Positions 89-4,227 of a stretch of DNA of 15,499 bases are shown piece by piece. Source of the stretch: Armatimonadota bacterium (GTDB lineage Bacteria; Armatimonadota; Armatimonadia; Armatimonadales; Armatimonadaceae); assembly GCA_043754515.1 (NCBI GenBank), contig JAYUUO010000075.1, positions 1 through 15,499 of the forward strand. Direction: 5' to 3'. The notes under the pieces are model-generated. The model was not told where the DNA came from and made no database searches. It saw only the letters and a program-made list of their open reading frames with translations. A program made the position numbers and the translations under genes. Positions within the stretch are counted from its first letter, which is position 1; each line of letters starts with the position of its first letter.

Positions 89-614
89 CGGCGGGCGCGG
101 TTCGCGAGCGGCGAAAGTGGCGTTTCGCCATCGTGATGGCATTCGACATCGCGGTGGTGGGATAAACCGAAAACGGACGCATTCAGGCAGGCACTGATGC
201 TCGGTGGTACATCCACCCTATTTAGGAATCTGCCTGTGCGGAAGCGGCAACATTTTCTAGACGGAGCGACCAGATAAAAAAGCAATCAGGGCTTACTTCC
301 CCGGTTTGTCGGCCGCGACTATGAGCCGCGAACCCTCCGCCATCAGAGCCGCCCGCTGTTTCGAGGAACGCGCTGATTCGGCAATGAACACGCACACGTC
401 AACCGGTGCCCCGTTGTGCGCGTGACCTGTGCCCGTAGACTACTCCTTCAACCCACCCATTGTGACCACGTGCGCCGTGGAATGTGGAAGGTGCTTGTTG
501 AAGTGGCCGAAGAAGGTAAAGGGATGGTTACAAGTTCACACAGGCATGAAAGCATGGGGTATGACAACGGCGAAGGGCACGGGAGGAAATAGGAACGCCA
601 CGCATAAACCGAAA

Positions 615-688
615 TGGCCTCGGAGGGACTCGAACCCCCGACCCTCTGTTCCGAAGACAGATGCTCTAATCCGCTGAGCTACGAAGCC
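615..688 (-). tRNA. tRNA-Arg, anticodon TCG (CCA not encoded)
   Basis: Reverse complement folds as GGCTTCG TA GCTC AGCGGATTA GAGC A TCTGT CT-TCG-GA ACAGA GGGTC GGGGG TTCGAGT CCCTC CGAGGCC A. The A20 Arg identity element is present. Anticodon at 652-654. Confidence 0.95.
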
Positions 689-751
689 AGAACCAATGTA
701 CTTATGGACAGGAAAGGCGTGATCGTCTCCCTAATGACATGAACCGCCCGT

Positions 752-805: not shown

Positions 806-1900
806 CTACTCGTCCTCTTCCGCCGCCTTGCGCTTCAGACTCGTGTGCGCGTCCGGCTCCGTCTTGTCGTCGCGCTCGCCCTGGTAGATCGGCTGATACA
901 GGCTTCCGCCCTCGTAGTAGTACAGGTACTTGATCTCGACCAGCGACCCGACGGCGGGGATCGCGAAGTTCGGCAGGATGGTCACGTTCCCGACTTTCAC
1001 GCACGCGTCCGCGCCCGGCTCCGTCAGCACGCCCACCTCCGCGCTACGCTTCCGGTCGCTGATCCCCAGCACCCGGCACGTCGCCGACTGCGTGAACTTA
1101 AACTTGCGCTGGTTGCCGCCCGACGCCGGCCGCCCCGCCCGGTACGGCGCGTCGAGCCGCTTCAGCACCACGCCCTCGCCGCCCGCGTTGCGGATCCGCT
1201 CCAGATGTGCCGCCTTGTCCGCCGCGCCCGCCGACGTTTCCACGAGCCGCAGGTACGCGCCGTCCGAAAGACCCGCGGCCAGCGTTCCGACCCGCTCCCC
1301 GTAAGTCACGTCGTTCAGAGAAGCGCCCGCCCACCGCGTCGTGTCGAACGCGTAGTAGACCGCGCCGATCAGTTCGCCGTCCAACACCGAGTCGTCGGGC
1401 AACACGGCCAGCAGGGCGTCGTGCAATTCTTGCGGTAAGGCGACGAGCAAGCCCTTGCGGTTAGAGCCGGATGCCGCGCCGTTCTGCTTTTGTAGCATGA
1501 TGCGCTTGCCGTCGAACTTGGTTTGTAGCACCCAATCATCGCCCGCGAGGAGCGCGGCGAGTTCGGCGTCCGTGGCGTCATTTAGCAGTTGCGGCACGTT
1601 GCCGGAAAGTCGCCCGGCGTCCTCCGTCCCCGCGAAAAGTTGCCCGCCCTCCTGGGCGGTGTAGCCCTTGCTTGTCTTTTCCTCGACCAGTTTGTCGAAA
1701 ATCGCCTTCGCCTTTTCCCGCGCCACTGGGGACGCGGTTTTGGTGCCCGCTTGCAGAGCCGACCCGCGCCGCCCGTACGAGAACCGCACGACGTAGCCGT
1801 CCCCGTCGGCGTGTATCGAGGCGTTATAGATCTTGTCGGAGCCGCCGTCGCGGTAGTAGAGGTTGGTGGTTTCGATGGGAGCGTCTGTCGGGTTCGTCAT
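806..1900 (-). CDS. WGR-domain ATP-dependent DNA ligase (WGR + adenylation domain + OB fold)
   Basis: N-terminal WGR-like domain (SDKIY...YGRRG...KLVEEKTSKGY). Nucleotidyltransferase motifs I (QTKFDGKR), III (LDGEL), IIIa (YYAFD), IV (GEGVVLK) and V (RKFK). C-terminal OB-like region (VEIKY...LYQPIYQGERDDK). Confidence 0.9.
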   Translation of the reverse strand: MTNPTDAPIETTNLYYRDGGSDKIYNASIHADGDGYVVRFSYGRRGSALQAGTKTASPVAREKAKAIFDKLVEEKTSKGYTAQEGGQLFAGTEDAGRLSGNVPQLLNDATDAELAALLAGDDWVLQTKFDGKRIMLQKQNGAASGSNRKGLLVALPQELHDALLAVLPDDSVLDGELIGAVYYAFDTTRWAGASLNDVTYGERVGTLAAGLSDGAYLRLVETSAGAADKAAHLERIRNAGGEGVVLKRLDAPYRAGRPASGGNQRKFKFTQSATCRVLGISDRKRSAEVGVLTEPGADACVKVGNVTILPNFAIPAVGSLVEIKYLYYYEGGSLYQPIYQGERDDKTEPDAHTSLKRKAAEEDE

Positions 1901-2080
1901 GGGTCAATTACTTTCGGGCGGGAGGGTCATTGTTTAGATCGTCGGTTCGGGAAGGTTCGTGGCCTGTCCTCTCCCCCTGATTCTAACGCCTCCGACACTC
2001 CACCGACCCCGAGCGTTACGGAAAATCCGATCATGCCGATGAAGAAAAGCCGCGCGACGTGGCATATCTCGGAAGAAATA

Positions 2081-2165
2081 TCGGCGAGGCGGGGGTCGAA
2101 CCCGCACGGGCTTTCAGCCCACTGGACTCTCATTCCAGCGCGTCTACCAATTACGCCACTCGCCG
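2081..2165 (-). tRNA. tRNA-Leu, anticodon GAG, long variable arm, atypical anticodon loop
   Basis: CGGCGAG TG GCG TAATTGGTAGA CGC G CTGGA AT-GAG-AG TCCAG TGGGCTGAAAGCCCGT GCGGG TTCGACC CCCGC CTCGCCG A. Has A73; no encoded CCA. Confidence 0.9.
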
Positions 2166-2170
2166 ACGGA

Positions 2171-2196
2171 GCGCGTTGCCGCGAAAAGCAACGCGC
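2171..2196. other. Spacer hairpin between tRNA-Leu genes
   Basis: Perfect 9-bp inverted repeat GCGCGTTGC-N8-GCAACGCGC. Confidence 0.6.
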
Positions 2197-2198
2197 GA

Positions 2199-2272
2199 TG
2201 CTCTCTCGCGGATTCGAACCGCGACTAAACCCATCTTAAGCGGGTTGCCTCTACCAGTTGGGCTAAGAGAGC
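2199..2272 (-). tRNA. tRNA-Leu, anticodon TAA, short variable loop (74 nt)
   Basis: GCTCTCT TA GCC CAACTGGTAGA GGC A ACCCG CT-TAA-GA TGGGT TTAGT CGCGG TTCGAAT CCGCG AGAGAGC A. Anticodon at 2236-2238. Confidence 0.88.
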
Positions 2273-2285
2273 GTGAAAGTTTAAG

Positions 2286-2359
2286 TGCCGCGAGCGAGAT
2301 TCGAACTCGCACCACACAGGGTCTAAGCCTGCTCCCTCTACCAATTGGGGTACCACGGC
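2286..2359 (-). tRNA. tRNA-Leu, anticodon TAG, short variable loop (74 nt)
   Basis: GCCGTGG TA CCC CAATTGGTAGA GGG A GCAGG CT-TAG-AC CCTGT GTGGT GCGAG TTCGAAT CTCGC TCGCGGC A. Anticodon at 2323-2325. Confidence 0.88.
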
Positions 2360-2367
2360 ATGATGAC

Positions 2368-2413
2368 AAACAAAAAAGCCCCGCTCTTCCCGGTTAAAGG
2401 GAAGGCGGGGCTT
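2368..2413 (-). terminator. Intrinsic terminator (attenuator 3:4 hairpin) directly upstream of the tRNA-Leu cluster
   Basis: Minus strand AAGCCCCGC-CTTCCC-TTTAACC-GGGAAG-A-GCGGGGCTT followed by TTTTGTTT, ending 8 nt before the first tRNA. Confidence 0.85.
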
Positions 2414-2439
2414 GCGAAAAACCGGTCGTCCGAACGGCG

Positions 2440-2514
2440 TTACGAAGCGATCCCTCCCCTATCTTTCAGGAGAAGCAGTTGGCTAAGCAACAAGTAGTTA
2501 TTCCGGGCGTTCAT
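2440..2514 (-). CDS. Leucine-rich leader peptide MNARNNYLLLSQLLLLKDRGGIAS (24 aa)
   Basis: ATG at 2514 preceded by SD-like TAAGGAAGG. Seven Leu codons within nine consecutive codons (TTG TTG CTT AGC CAA CTG CTT CTC CTG). The stop lies 26 nt before the terminator stem. Confidence 0.8.
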   Translation of the reverse strand: MNARNNYLLLSQLLLLKDRGGIAS

Positions 2515-2607
2515 GCCTTCCTTATCGGCACGATAGTCCTCGTTGCTAAACGGGGACGCGCCTTTTTTTTCGCGAGCCGCCCGGATTATGATATGCTCGA
2601 AGACGAG

Positions 2608-2814
2608 ATGAACCCTCCGCCGCGCCCGTTCACGCCGCAAGACCCTGATCCCGCCGCTTCGCCCTGTACACGGGTGTGTACGCTGGATGAAAACAACGTC
2701 TGCCTCGGCTGTGCGCGTAGTCTGACCGAGATCACGCGCTGGTCCGCCATGACCGACGCCGAGCGACGCGCGGTGGTAGCGCGGCTCCGGGTCAACTCAC
2801 CAACCGGAACCTAG
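2608..2814 (+). CDS. DUF1289-family small Cys-rich (predicted Fe-S) protein
   Basis: Signature SPCxxVCxLD...CxGCxRSLxEIxxW..M...ER. Start chosen at ATG 2608 (alternative 2593). The ORF-track extension to 2479 overlaps the leader on the opposite strand. Confidence 0.85.
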   Translation: MNPPPRPFTPQDPDPAASPCTRVCTLDENNVCLGCARSLTEITRWSAMTDAERRAVVARLRVNSPTGT

Positions 2815-2868
2815 AGACGGATAGTCCCGCGATAGTACGACGGGGCGGAGCACGGGCGACAATATTTC

Positions 2869-4227
2869 ATGAATTATCCGGGACAACTCGGTACTACTAC
2901 ATACGAGCCTACTGCACTTCCCGCCCCGCCGTCGGACGATCCGACACAGCCCACCCCGCCGAAAGGCGCGACTAAAGCGGGGCTACTCGCGACACTGGGA
3001 CCGGGCCTGATCACCGGCGCGTCGGATGACGACCCGAGCGGGATCGCGACCTACTCGCAGGTCGGGGCGCAGTTCGGATACGGGATGCTCTGGGTGATGC
3101 TGTTCTCGTACCCACTTATGTGCGGAATTCAGGAGATCAGCGGGCAGATCGGGCGTGTCACTGGGCGCGGTATCGCGGGCAACTTGCGCAAGTTCTACCA
3201 CCCGGTTTTCTTATATAGCATCGTTTTCCTCGTTCTCGCGGCCAATATCATCAACATCGGCGCGGACGTCAACGCGATGGGCGCGGCGATGAAGCTACTG
3301 GTCGGCGGCCCCGTCCTGGCTTGGGCCACCCTGTTCGCCGTTATCGTTCTGCTACTCGAAGTGTTCTTGCCTTACGAGAAATACGCACGATTCCTCAAGT
3401 GGCTTTGCGCCGTGCTGTTCGCTTACGTCGCCACCGTTTTCGTGGTACATGTCCCGTGGGGTGCCGCGCTGAGGGCGACCGTGATCCCGTCGTTCACCTG
3501 GTCCACAACGTTCGTGACCAGCATCGTCGCGGTACTCGGCACGACCATCTCGCCGTACCTATTCTTTTGGCAGGCGCAGGAGGAGGTCGAGATCGAACGC
3601 GCGAACCCCCGCGAACGGCCGCTACGCCGCGACCCAAGCGATGCGGGCTCAGAGTTGCATCGCATCCGGGTGGACACGTATGTCGGCATGGCGTTCTCGA
3701 ACCTGATCGCCTTTTTCATCATCCTGACCGCCGCCGTCACACTCAACAAGCACGGCATCACTGATATACAGACCGCGACCGACGCCGCGAAGGCACTGGA
3801 GCCGGTCGCGGGCCGGTTCGCGTTCCTGCTCTTCTCACTCGGGATCATCGGGACGGGGCTGCTGGCGGTGCCTGTGCTCGCCGGTTCCGCCGCGTACGCG
3901 GTCGGGGAGACGCTACGCTGGCGCGTCGGGCTGAACAACGACATTCCGCACGCACGCCGCTTCTACGGCGTGCTGGCGGCAGCGACGTTTCTGGGACTCG
4001 GCATGAACTTCGTACATCTGGACCCGATCAAGGCACTGTTCTGGTCCGCGGTTATCAATGGCGTGGTCGCGGTGCCGATCATGTTTCTGATGATGTTTAT
4101 GGCGAGTAATGACAAAGCAATGGGGCGGTTCACCTTGAACACGCGCCAGAAGGTATTAGGCTGGGCGGCGACCGCGGTGATGACAGCCGCCGCGATTGCG
4201 CTGTTCGCCACCTGGGGCAAAGGATAA
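2869..4227 (+). CDS. NRAMP-family (MntH-related) divalent metal transporter
   Basis: LGPGLITGASDDDPSGIATYSQVGAQFGY (TM1), GRVTGRG, GTTISPY (TM6) and roughly 11 hydrophobic segments. Confidence 0.88.
   Translation: MNYPGQLGTTTYEPTALPAPPSDDPTQPTPPKGATKAGLLATLGPGLITGASDDDPSGIATYSQVGAQFGYGMLWVMLFSYPLMCGIQEISGQIGRVTGRGIAGNLRKFYHPVFLYSIVFLVLAANIINIGADVNAMGAAMKLLVGGPVLAWATLFAVIVLLLEVFLPYEKYARFLKWLCAVLFAYVATVFVVHVPWGAALRATVIPSFTWSTTFVTSIVAVLGTTISPYLFFWQAQEEVEIERANPRERPLRRDPSDAGSELHRIRVDTYVGMAFSNLIAFFIILTAAVTLNKHGITDIQTATDAAKALEPVAGRFAFLLFSLGIIGTGLLAVPVLAGSAAYAVGETLRWRVGLNNDIPHARRFYGVLAAATFLGLGMNFVHLDPIKALFWSAVINGVVAVPIMFLMMFMASNDKAMGRFTLNTRQKVLGWAATAVMTAAAIALFATWGKG

What the first reader, a model, noticed from the sequence alone, without database searches (positions are those of the whole stretch)
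2081..2525. Leucine leader-peptide attenuator controlling a tRNA-Leu operon
Seen (minus strand): SD, then a 24-aa ORF with 7 clustered Leu codons, then an intrinsic terminator, then three tRNA-Leu genes starting 8 nt later. The RNA has the textbook alternative pairings. CUUCUCCU (within the Leu codons) pairs with AGGGGAGG (1:2). AGGGGAGG can instead pair with CCUUCCCU in the terminator 5' arm, helped by GCUUCG (2443-2448) with CGCAAGC (2410-2416) (2:3 antiterminator). Otherwise the 3:4 terminator forms. Established: this architecture regulates trp/his/leu biosynthetic operons and pheST. Inference: here ribosome stalling on Leu codons switches on tRNA genes themselves, a feedback loop supplying backup tRNA-Leu when Leu decoding fails (tRNA cleavage or modification by toxins, hypomodification, or starvation). 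I do not know of a described cognate-codon leader attenuator controlling tRNA genes, but I cannot search the literature.
Basis: partly seen in the sequence, partly recalled or inferred. Interest (0 to 1): 0.92.

Follow-up and report, generated by a model that had tools for sequence, protein, structure and literature searches.

The report
Leader-peptide attenuator gating spare tRNA-Leu genes
A tiny leucine-rich reading frame and a switchable transcription stop sit directly in front of three extra leucine tRNA genes, so the cell probably makes these spare tRNAs only when ribosomes read leucine codons slowly, a control known for amino-acid synthesis genes but not described for tRNA genes.

Summary
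On the minus strand lie a promoter-like pair of words (2551-2523), a 24-codon ORF with 7 Leu codons (2514-2440), a strong hairpin plus U-run (2413-2365) and, 8 nt later, three tRNA-Leu genes.

- **Homologous leaders:** same-genus and same-family genomes have them before Leu-only tRNA clusters. Leu is kept through synonymous changes while the rest of the peptide diverges.
- **Other arrays:** another array in this genome (Trp-Pro-Met-Phe) and arrays across Armatimonadota have leaders spelled in the amino acids of their own tRNAs. Only 1 of 20,000 permutations reached the observed match.
- **Folding:** a ribosome held on the Leu codons frees a segment that pairs with the terminator's 5' arm. A ribosome at the stop codon does not.

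Caveats:
- There are no expression data.
- The antiterminator is only modestly better than shuffles.
- Matching is at amino-acid level, not anticodon level.
- The Shine-Dalgarno word is not conserved, so the mRNA is probably leaderless.

I found no published account in nine literature searches. This scan has noted the same kind of system before on other DNA.

The parts
2545..2551 (-). -35-like 7-base word of the leader promoter, preceded by an A-run (2565-2572)
   Evidence: Invariant in the 4 Leu-type homologues. With the -10-like word it occurs 8 times in the genome against about 1 expected, twice before tRNA arrays.
2523..2527 (-). -10-like 5-base word, 17 nt after the -35-like word and 8 nt before the ATG
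   Evidence: Invariant in the alignment. The same word pair precedes protein genes whose ATG lies 7-11 nt downstream. A leaderless start is inferred from this.
2440..2514 (-). Leader ORF, 24 codons plus stop, 7 Leu
   Evidence: Homologous ORFs occur in G002, G004 and (ambiguous frame) G003.
2485..2493 (-). Leu codons 8-10 (first regulatory run)
   Evidence: Leu in all three clear homologues, with synonymous differences.
2467..2478 (-). Leu codons 13-16 (second run); 2467-2475 is also segment 1, the pyrimidine-rich strand
   Evidence: Pairs with segment 2 in the free fold. The 1:2 helix is recovered by RNAalifold.
2452..2461 (-). Segment 2, the purine-rich strand inside the 3' end of the ORF. 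It can pair with segment 1 or with segment 3.
2397..2405 (-). Segment 3: the distal part of the terminator 5' arm that pairs with segment 2 in the antiterminator
   Evidence: In the nascent-RNA fold with a ribosome on Leu codons, 11 of 15 arm bases are sequestered, at -24.6 to -26.6 kcal/mol for stalls at Leu codons 8-15 (8 of 15, -16.3, at codon 16).
2365..2413 (-). Intrinsic terminator: hairpin 2413-2376 and U-rich tail
   Evidence: -28.5 kcal/mol. It is conserved with compensatory changes in homologues; 7 of 21 consensus pairs show double changes.
2285..2359 (-). tRNA-Leu(UAG), 75 nt, short variable loop
   Evidence: (53.8 bits).
2199..2272 (-). tRNA-Leu(UAA), 74 nt, short variable loop
   Evidence: (55.1 bits).
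2080..2166 (-). tRNA-Leu(GAG), 87 nt, canonical long variable arm
   Evidence: (52 bits).
806..1900 (-). WGR plus ATP-dependent ligase domain ORF downstream on the same strand. It may be co-transcribed; this is uncertain.
   Evidence: Pfam and NCBIfam. Only 1 of 13 homologous loci elsewhere has tRNA genes nearby.
614..689 (-). tRNA-Arg(UCG) further downstream on the same strand. It may be the last member of the unit; this is uncertain.
   Evidence: The only other Arg(UCG) gene in the genome ends the C219 array.
2608..2814 (+). Divergent DUF1289 gene that bounds the intergenic region

Best explanation
This is a ribosome-mediated (leader-peptide) transcription attenuator that gates a cluster of three supernumerary tRNA-Leu genes.

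Transcription starts at a promoter just upstream of the ATG, probably giving a leaderless mRNA. A ribosome translates the 24-codon leader while RNA polymerase moves on.
- **Leu codons read fast:** the ribosome reaches the end of the ORF and covers the purine-rich segment 2. The terminator hairpin forms and transcription stops 8 nt before the first tRNA.
- **Ribosome lingers on the seven Leu codons:** segment 2 is free and pairs with the terminator's 5' arm. The terminator cannot form, polymerase reads into the tRNA genes, and RNase P presumably cuts them out.

The tRNAs made then speed up Leu decoding and shut the switch again, which is negative feedback.

Shown here: the parts, their conservation, the amino-acid match and the folding potential. 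Inferred: translation, the kinetic switch, the feedback and the physiological trigger.
For: 1. **Anatomy** is as described.

2. **Spare genes.** The genome has canonical Leu tRNAs for UAG, UAA, GAG, CAG and CAA elsewhere. The window's three are at most 71% identical to any other tRNA in the genome.

3. **Homologues.** Leu-only tRNA clusters in G002, G003 and G004 carry the same promoter words, ORF and terminator. Leu is the conserved residue: 5 all-Leu columns, 4 of them with synonymous codon differences, against 16 of 24 variable columns.

4. **Same logic with other amino acids.**
   - In this genome the Trp-Pro-Met-Phe array on C160 is preceded by the same promoter words, a 38-codon ORF with 14 of 37 residues W/P/M/F (background 12%, P = 7.5e-5) and a terminator.
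   - In genus g6, arrays coding 7-9 amino acids have a leader with 29 to 40 of 41 to 47 residues from the set found in each locus (P 6e-5 to 2e-9). It carries an in-frame 6-codon indel, and 7 of 12 variable columns stay within the set.
   - More leader types occur in other families of the phylum.

5. **Objective test.** For 23 array starts I took the longest ATG ORF ending 50-135 nt before the first tRNA, giving 14 leader families. Mean z was 2.05 for true pairs against 0.57 for cross pairs. Only 1 of 20,000 permutations reached the observed value.

6. **Within-genome control.** Of 51 tRNA blocks, only C75 and C160 combine a U-run with an enriched ORF. The five housekeeping Leu tRNA genes have none (P 0.13-0.79).

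7. **Folding.** I folded the nascent RNA up to the terminator loop.
   - With a ribosome on Leu codons, an antiterminator of -24 to -34 kcal/mol forms at most stall positions (weaker, -13 to -20, at the last Leu codon). It takes 10-15 of the 15-18 arm bases there, in all 4 homologues.
   - With the ribosome at the stop codon, only -1 to -5 kcal/mol remains.
   - The same dependence on ribosome position appears in 8 of 10 representative leaders of other types. In the other 2 the script picked the wrong hairpin.

8. **Lineage precedent.** A covariance model built from the four Leu-type leaders also finds a Phe/Tyr/Trp-rich leader plus terminator in two g6 genomes. In G021, the one checked, it sits directly before a DAHP synthase gene. 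So this lineage uses classical leader-peptide attenuation.
Against: - **No expression data.** No RNA run holds the locus. Translation and termination are therefore unproven.
- **Weak shuffle control.** Dinucleotide shuffles of the segment upstream of the terminator arm give z of only -1.4 to -2.3. Between 0 and 13 of 300 shuffles match both energy and arm coverage for the four Leu-type leaders. For C160, at the pre-set stall codon, the test was not significant (43 of 300). Purine-rich against pyrimidine-rich composition alone gives much of the pairing.
- **No column-wise covariation.** It could not be shown for the antiterminator because the helices shift register between homologues.
- **No anticodon-level match.** 203 of 261 in-set codons are readable by the adjacent tRNAs, against 206 expected from synonymous usage. 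The sensor therefore does not single out the array's own anticodons.
- **G003 is ambiguous.** The aligned frame has only 4 Leu, and an overlapping frame has 7.
- **One leader type is not enriched.** The G055/G065 type fails under the block definition used (P 0.13 and 0.35).
- **Physiological puzzle.** Amino-acid starvation would also open the switch, and extra tRNA would not help then.
Confidence: 0.8

Rival explanations
1. It is a general translation-stress sensor. The leader works like antibiotic-inducible leaders (erm or cat type): any slowing of ribosomes opens the terminator, and the Leu codons are not the specific signal.
For: Matching is not at anticodon level. The one studied tRNA array, in Anabaena, is induced by general impairment of translation (PMC8421152, abstract and passages read).
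Against: Leader composition tracks the amino-acid set of each array, and different arrays have different leaders (1 of 20,000 permutations). In the Leu type, Leu is the conserved feature. A non-specific sensor would not need this.
Confidence: 0.1
2. The terminator is a constitutive, leaky stop or insulator. The short ORF is either a small protein of its own or untranslated, so the tRNAs are made by fixed partial read-through without regulation.
For: No expression data exist. The antiterminator is only modestly better than shuffles.
Against: This does not explain why leaders list the amino acids of their arrays. It does not explain why Leu is kept by synonymous changes while other residues drift. 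It also does not explain why in-set residues sit upstream of the strand that pairs with the terminator arm.
Confidence: 0.07
3. It is a chance arrangement. The Leu codons are a by-product of a pyrimidine-rich pairing strand read in frame.
For: Leu codons 13-16 overlap segment 1, which must be pyrimidine-rich to pair with segment 2.
Against: Leu codons 8-10 lie outside segment 1 and are conserved. Leaders of other arrays are rich in Trp, Pro, Met and Phe, or in Gln, Asn, Arg, His, Ser, Cys, Asp and Glu, which such a strand cannot explain.
Confidence: 0.03

Closest known systems
Leader-peptide transcription attenuators of amino-acid operons (leu, ilv, thr, his, trp, pheA leaders of enterobacteria; named from established knowledge)
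   Same: A short ORF with a run of cognate codons, alternative 1:2, 2:3 and 3:4 pairings, and an intrinsic terminator before the regulated genes. The multi-amino-acid leaders of the larger arrays resemble multivalent ilv and thr leaders.
   Different: The regulated genes are tRNA genes, not biosynthetic enzymes. Leaders can list up to nine amino acids. The mRNA is probably leaderless. There is no similarity to any Rfam leader family.
pheST (pheM leader) attenuator of E. coli (recalled, not read here)
   Same: A leader-peptide attenuator that controls a component of the translation apparatus for the cognate amino acid.
   Different: It controls an aminoacyl-tRNA synthetase, a protein, not the tRNA itself.
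T-box riboswitches
   Same: They sense the state of a specific tRNA and switch between a terminator and an antiterminator.
   Different: A T-box binds uncharged tRNA directly and has no translated leader. No T-box match was found in the window.
[quoted passage not shown]
   Same: Supernumerary tRNA genes in arrays, silent unless translation is impaired, and linked to an RNA ligase (rtcB there; an ATP-dependent RNA ligase beside arrays here).
   Different: The Anabaena array is controlled at the promoter by direct repeats and a repressor. That paper does not contain the words leader, attenuat- or terminator. Here control is by a translated leader plus a terminator.
Phe/Tyr/Trp-rich leader before DAHP synthase in the same bacterial family (found here)
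   Same: The same architecture, recognised by the covariance model built from the tRNA-Leu leaders (32-34 bits).
   Different: It regulates an amino-acid biosynthesis gene, which is the classical target.

Membership tests
Leader-peptide (ribosome-mediated) transcription attenuator | Short ORF at the 5' end of the transcript that is translated | tested here: inconclusive
   The ORF is present and conserved in frame, with synonymous Leu changes and an in-frame 6-codon indel in the g6 type. Translation itself cannot be tested with these tools, and no RNA run was found.
Leader-peptide (ribosome-mediated) transcription attenuator | Cluster of regulatory codons cognate to the regulated product | tested here: met
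   7 Leu in 24 codons before three tRNA-Leu genes. The match holds across 14 leader families (1 of 20,000 permutations). It is at amino-acid level only.
Leader-peptide (ribosome-mediated) transcription attenuator | Intrinsic terminator between the leader and the regulated genes | tested here: met
   Hairpin of -28.5 kcal/mol plus U-run ending 8 nt before the first tRNA. It is conserved with compensatory changes.
Leader-peptide (ribosome-mediated) transcription attenuator | Mutually exclusive antiterminator whose formation depends on ribosome position | tested here: inconclusive
   It forms in folds of all 4 homologues when the ribosome is on Leu codons and is lost with the ribosome at the stop codon. 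Shuffle controls are only modest, z -1.4 to -2.3. Column-wise covariation could not be scored.
Leader-peptide (ribosome-mediated) transcription attenuator | Regulated genes encode amino-acid biosynthesis enzymes or aminoacyl-tRNA synthetases | tested here: not met
   The downstream genes are tRNA genes.
Rfam leader families (Leu, His, Thr, Trp leaders and others) and T-box | Match to the curated covariance model | tested here: not met
   No match at gathering score. At E up to 10 on 2355-2620 only unrelated families appear, at most 19.6 bits against cut-offs of 40-60.
[quoted passage not shown] | Supernumerary tRNA genes, added to a full housekeeping set | tested here: met
   Every anticodon of the window block has a second, divergent copy elsewhere in the genome.
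[quoted passage not shown] | One long array of about 20 or more genes, spread by horizontal transfer | tested here: inconclusive
   Here there are blocks of 3, 4 and at least 14 genes on three contigs of a fragmented assembly. An integrase flanks the C160 block. Linkage between the blocks is unknown.

The most novel reading that the evidence does not exclude
Armatimonadota, and by this scan's earlier notes other bacteria, phages and archaea, carry a demand-driven tRNA reserve. Each block of spare tRNA genes is headed by a 'barcode' leader peptide that lists the block's amino acids. A shortage of any one of those tRNAs, for example after cleavage by anticodon nucleases of toxins or defence systems, switches the whole block on. 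Adjacent ATP-dependent RNA ligases repair the damaged pool. This would be a previously unrecognised, widespread branch of translational quality control and of the tRNA arms race.
Probability: 0.3. Interest if true: 0.92.

Novelty: new variant of a known kind. Interest (0 to 1): 0.85.

Why it matters
Control of bacterial tRNA genes is usually described as growth-rate and stringent control at promoters. A codon-sensing attenuator would show that cells can measure the decoding speed of particular amino acids and respond by making the tRNAs themselves.

It would also give the puzzling supernumerary tRNA arrays a regulatory logic: silent unless needed. And it offers a simple, testable reporter, namely leader, terminator and tRNA, for tRNA depletion by starvation, toxins or phage defence.

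The leaders additionally act as a built-in annotation. Their composition predicts which tRNAs, including atypical ones such as the short-arm tRNA-Leu, are treated by the cell as decoders of a given amino acid.

Tried and rejected
- **BLAST of the leader DNA (2360-2620)** against 40 relatives found only the window itself. The homologues are too diverged for BLAST and were found through the tRNAs instead.
- **Sigma-70 consensus promoter scan:** 0 sites in 1800-3000. A lineage-specific word pair was used instead.
- **Column-wise pair counting** on the MAFFT alignment was abandoned, because helices shift register between homologues.
- **Anticodon-level matching** of leader codons to the adjacent tRNAs showed no enrichment (203 of 261 against 206 expected), so I make no such claim.
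- **The WGR-ligase ORF as a conserved partner of arrays** was rejected: only 1 of 13 homologous loci has tRNA genes nearby.
- **RNA evidence:** no RNA holder is listed. One run holds 0.04 of the sampled words.
- **Rfam:** no leader or T-box family matched.
- **Literature:** nine full-text searches found no account of a leader-peptide attenuator before tRNA genes. The library covers open-access PMC and bioRxiv only, so subscription papers could have been missed.
- **Statistics script with typed peptides:** I redid the statistic from coordinates.
- **** failed on a wrong start coordinate, which I corrected.
Full report
**What is there**

The window is a whole 15,499-base contig (C75) of a 5.1-Mb, 313-contig assembly that is 92.7% complete. 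Records of its relatives are titled as Armatimonadales or Armatimonadota genomes. On the minus strand, in order, lie:

- an A-run, a 7-base -35-like word (2551-2545) and a 5-base -10-like word (2527-2523);
- an ORF from the ATG at 2514 to the stop at 2442-2440, with 24 sense codons and Leu at codons 8-10 and 13-16;
- a hairpin at 2413-2376, followed by a U-rich tail to about 2365;
- three tRNA genes with Leu anticodons starting at 2359: UAG, UAA and GAG.

A DUF1289 gene starts divergently at 2608, so 2360-2607 is the whole control region. Downstream on the same strand are a WGR plus ATP-dependent ligase ORF (1900-806) and a tRNA-Arg(UCG) gene (689-614).

**The tRNAs are spare copies**

The genome holds 77 tRNA genes. 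Among them are canonical 81-86-nt Leu tRNAs for UAG, UAA, GAG, CAG and CAA on other contigs. The window's three are at most 71% identical to any other tRNA in the genome. Two of them (74 and 75 nt) fold as ordinary cloverleaves but lack the long variable arm of bacterial tRNA-Leu. Two more blocks of spare tRNAs exist:

- Trp-Pro-Met-Phe on C160;
- at least 14 genes on the 3.2-kb contig C219.

**The same design recurs in this genome**

The C160 block is preceded by the same promoter word pair. It has a 38-codon ORF (810-926) in which 14 of 37 residues are Trp, Pro, Met or Phe, against a 12% background (P = 7.5e-5), and then a hairpin with a U-run.

The C219 array starts 6-7 nt after a hairpin with a U-run, but its leader is cut off by the contig end.

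Of the 51 tRNA blocks in the genome, only C75 and C160 combine a U-run with an ORF enriched in cognate residues. The five housekeeping Leu genes do not (best ORFs P 0.13-0.79). Two Arg tRNA genes have Arg-rich upstream ORFs (P below 0.01) but no U-run, which I read as GC-rich noise.

**Homologues**

BLAST of the two short tRNAs found matches in 16 of 71 genomes of the order (E up to 1e-3) and in 23 of 401 sampled genomes of the phylum (E up to 1e-4). Almost all the matches lie in tRNA arrays.

Leu-only clusters in G002 and G003 (same genus) and G004 (same family) are preceded by the same promoter words, a 23-24-codon ORF, a terminator and a U-run that abuts the first tRNA.

- In the three clear homologues, 16 of 24 peptide columns vary.
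- Five columns are Leu in all three, and 4 of these 5 use different synonymous codons.
- This is the pattern expected if the identity of the codon as Leu, rather than the peptide or the RNA sequence, is under selection.
- G003 is ambiguous: the aligned frame has 4 Leu and an overlapping frame has 7.
- The purine-rich word before the ATG in the window is not conserved. The ATG lies 6-9 nt after the -10-like word.

The promoter word pair occurs 8 times in the genome, against about 1 expected. Two of those sites precede tRNA arrays and six precede protein-coding or other ORFs, two of which have the ATG 7 and 11 nt downstream. From this I infer a general promoter type of this lineage and leaderless or near-leaderless mRNAs.

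**Leaders list the amino acids of their arrays**

- **Genus g6:** arrays coding Glu, Asp, Asn, Arg, Ser, Gln, Leu, Cys and His are headed by a 42-48-codon ORF. In G008, 40 of its 47 residues belong to that set (background 42%, P = 2e-9). The first 31 residues after the second codon are all in the set.
- **Among five g6 genomes:** the leader differs by an in-frame 6-codon indel, and 7 of 12 variable columns stay inside the set.
- **Other leader types:** they precede Tyr-Asp-Asn-Gln-Ala-Leu, Leu-Asn-Asp-Arg-Ser, Gln-Asn-Leu and His-Arg-Leu-Trp-Phe blocks in other genera and families.

I listed all 61 ATG ORFs of at least 15 codons within 330 nt upstream of array starts (44, 17).

- In one search, the 13 most enriched are all U-run-adjacent ORFs ending 53-130 nt before the first tRNA.
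- In one search, six of the seven most enriched are of this kind. The exception is a 57-codon ORF with no U-run (P = 0.012).
- One leader type (G055, G065) is not significant under my block definition (P 0.13 and 0.35).

I then applied a fixed rule: the longest ATG ORF ending 50-135 nt before a tRNA that has a U-run. This rule picks the wrong frame at least once (z -2.4 for G004). It gave 23 array starts in 14 leader families. Mean z was 2.05 for true leader-array pairs, against 0.57 for cross pairs. Only 1 of 20,000 permutations reached the observed mean.

**Limits of the match**

Under strict wobble rules, 203 of 261 in-set leader codons can be read by the adjacent tRNAs, and 206 are expected from synonymous codon usage. 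The match is therefore at the level of the amino acid, not the anticodon.

For the window the test is empty, because the three tRNAs read all six Leu codons. Three things weaken the test: unannotated tRNA-like sequences in array gaps, loci cut at 3 kb, and possible four-way reading by U34.

**Folding**

The free 171-nt leader folds at -62.5 kcal/mol (z = -2.26), with the 1:2 hairpin and the terminator. RNAalifold on the four homologues recovers both helices, and 7 of 21 pairs keep pairing through changes on both sides.

Attenuation is kinetic, so I folded the nascent RNA up to the terminator loop and masked everything up to 11 nt past the A-site codon.

- **Ribosome on Leu codons:** segment 2 pairs with the terminator's 5' arm in all four homologues. 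The energy is -24 to -34 kcal/mol and 10-15 of the 15-18 arm bases are paired at most stall positions. At the last Leu codon it is weaker, -13 to -20 kcal/mol with 6-9 bases. The terminators themselves are -20 to -33 kcal/mol.
- **Ribosome at the stop codon:** only -1 to -5 kcal/mol remains.

C160 behaves the same way for stalls at codons 18-25, and so do 8 of 10 representatives of other leader types. In the other two the script took the wrong hairpin. In these leaders the in-set residues lie upstream, and the last 10-15 codons, which carry the pairing strand, are mostly out of set.

The control is sobering. I made dinucleotide shuffles of the free upstream segment.

| Leader | z (range or value) | Shuffles matching both energy and arm coverage (of 300) |
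|---|---|---|
| Four Leu-type leaders | -1.4 to -2.3 | 5, 3, 0, 13 |
| C160 at the pre-set codon | -1.04 | 43 (not significant) |

Column-wise covariation of the antiterminator could not be scored, because the helices shift register. The structural evidence is therefore consistent but not strong by itself. The comparative codon evidence carries the case.

**This lineage uses classical attenuation too**

A covariance model built from the four Leu-type leaders was searched over the 71 genomes of the order.

- It found the four training sequences.
- It found a related leader before a YqeY-like gene in G010 (47 bits).
- It found a Phe/Tyr/Trp-rich leader plus terminator in two g6 genomes (32-34 bits). 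In G021, the one checked, this leader sits directly before a class I DAHP synthase gene.

**Comparison with what is known**

The mechanism is that of leader-peptide attenuators of amino-acid operons and of pheST; these are named from established knowledge and were not read here. The target is new.

No Rfam family matches the leader. The one experimentally studied tRNA array, the Anabaena trn operon, is silent, is induced when translation is impaired, and is co-regulated with the ligase rtcB. However, it is controlled by promoter repeats. The words leader, attenuat-, terminator, uORF and 'small ORF' do not occur in that paper (PMC8421152, searched; abstract and passages read). A later paper names a repressor, TrcR (PMC10272220, search listing only).

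Nine full-text searches found no description of a leader-peptide attenuator before tRNA genes. The library holds open-access PMC and bioRxiv only.

This scan has noted the same kind of arrangement before on other DNA: bacteria, phages and an Asgard archaeon. In all, 336 notes hold my search words, and none is from this genome or its close relatives. I did not examine those loci.

**Function**

The shown facts fit a negative-feedback supply of spare tRNAs. What triggers the switch in nature is inference. Two observations hint at tRNA damage rather than starvation:

- An ATP-dependent RNA ligase of the DRB0094 family directly follows the C219 array. Its homologues lie within about 1.5 kb of two or more tRNA genes in 9 of 25 loci of the order, counting this genome.
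- The C160 block is flanked by an integrase and a Septu PtuA/PtuB pair. Papers on phage tRNAs countering tRNA-cleaving defences exist (PMC10264068, PMC11555353; search listing and first lines of the abstracts only).

Neither observation shows a link.

**Verdict**

I give confidence 0.8 that this is a codon-sensing attenuator of spare tRNA genes. It is a new variant of a known kind.

Noticed in passing
window 2199-2272 and 2285-2359 (minus); also loci L003-L018 and L034-L050: tRNAs with Leu anticodons but only 73-79 nt, with no long variable arm, a 3-bp D stem and A73. They recur in tRNA arrays across the phylum, while the housekeeping Leu tRNAs of this genome are 81-86 nt. Whether LeuRS charges them is unknown.
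   Followed up: partly
G000 contig C219 (L032) 171-1205, minus: An ATP-dependent RNA ligase (TIGR02306, DRB0094 family; 173 bits against a cut-off of 151) directly follows the array of at least 14 tRNA genes. Homologues lie within about 1.5 kb of two or more tRNA genes in 9 of 25 loci of the order, counting this genome, and some sit inside arrays.
   Followed up: partly
G000 contig C160 (L033 1396-2535 minus; L076 362-2667 plus): The Trp-Pro-Met-Phe block is flanked by a phage-type integrase that overlaps the end of tRNA-Phe, and by Septu PtuA/PtuB homologues. PtuA appears split over two overlapping ORFs. This may be a small defence island integrated at the array.
   Followed up: partly
G000 contigs C219 (1574-1660), C138 (11927-11999), C170 (60-147); loci L013-L017: Odd tRNA calls: tRNA-Cys(GCA) of 84-87 nt with a long extra arm inside arrays of several genomes, a 73-nt tRNA with anticodon CUA (called Pyl by ARAGORN), and an 88-nt tRNA-Lys(CUU).
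   Followed up: no
G021 locus L083 (reverse strand 1501-1636 of the locus) and G042 locus L082: A Phe/Tyr/Trp-rich short ORF plus terminator directly before a class I DAHP synthase gene (Pfam checked for G021 only). This is a classical aromatic leader-peptide attenuator in Armatimonadota, found with the model built from the tRNA-Leu leaders.
   Followed up: partly
G010 locus L081 (reverse strand 1501-1645 of the locus): A leader related to the Leu type (47 bits), with a terminator, sits before a YqeY-like gene and has no tRNA genes nearby.
   Followed up: no
G000 contigs C30, C39, C59, C88, C115, C183: The promoter word pair of the leaders occurs 8 times in the genome against about 1 expected. 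At C115 and C88 the ATG of a long ORF lies 7 and 11 nt after the -10-like word, which suggests leaderless mRNAs are common here.
   Followed up: partly
window 2536-2557 (plus): An inverted repeat flagged as terminator-like on the plus strand overlaps the -35-like word of the leader promoter. It is not conserved in the homologues.
   Followed up: no
G000 contig C219, gap between tRNA-Arg(GCG) and tRNA-Asn (about 1977-2470): By eye, the 500-nt gap holds tRNA-like sequences with long extra arms that ARAGORN did not call. Similar uncalled stretches lie in gaps of g6 arrays. I did not verify this.
   Followed up: no
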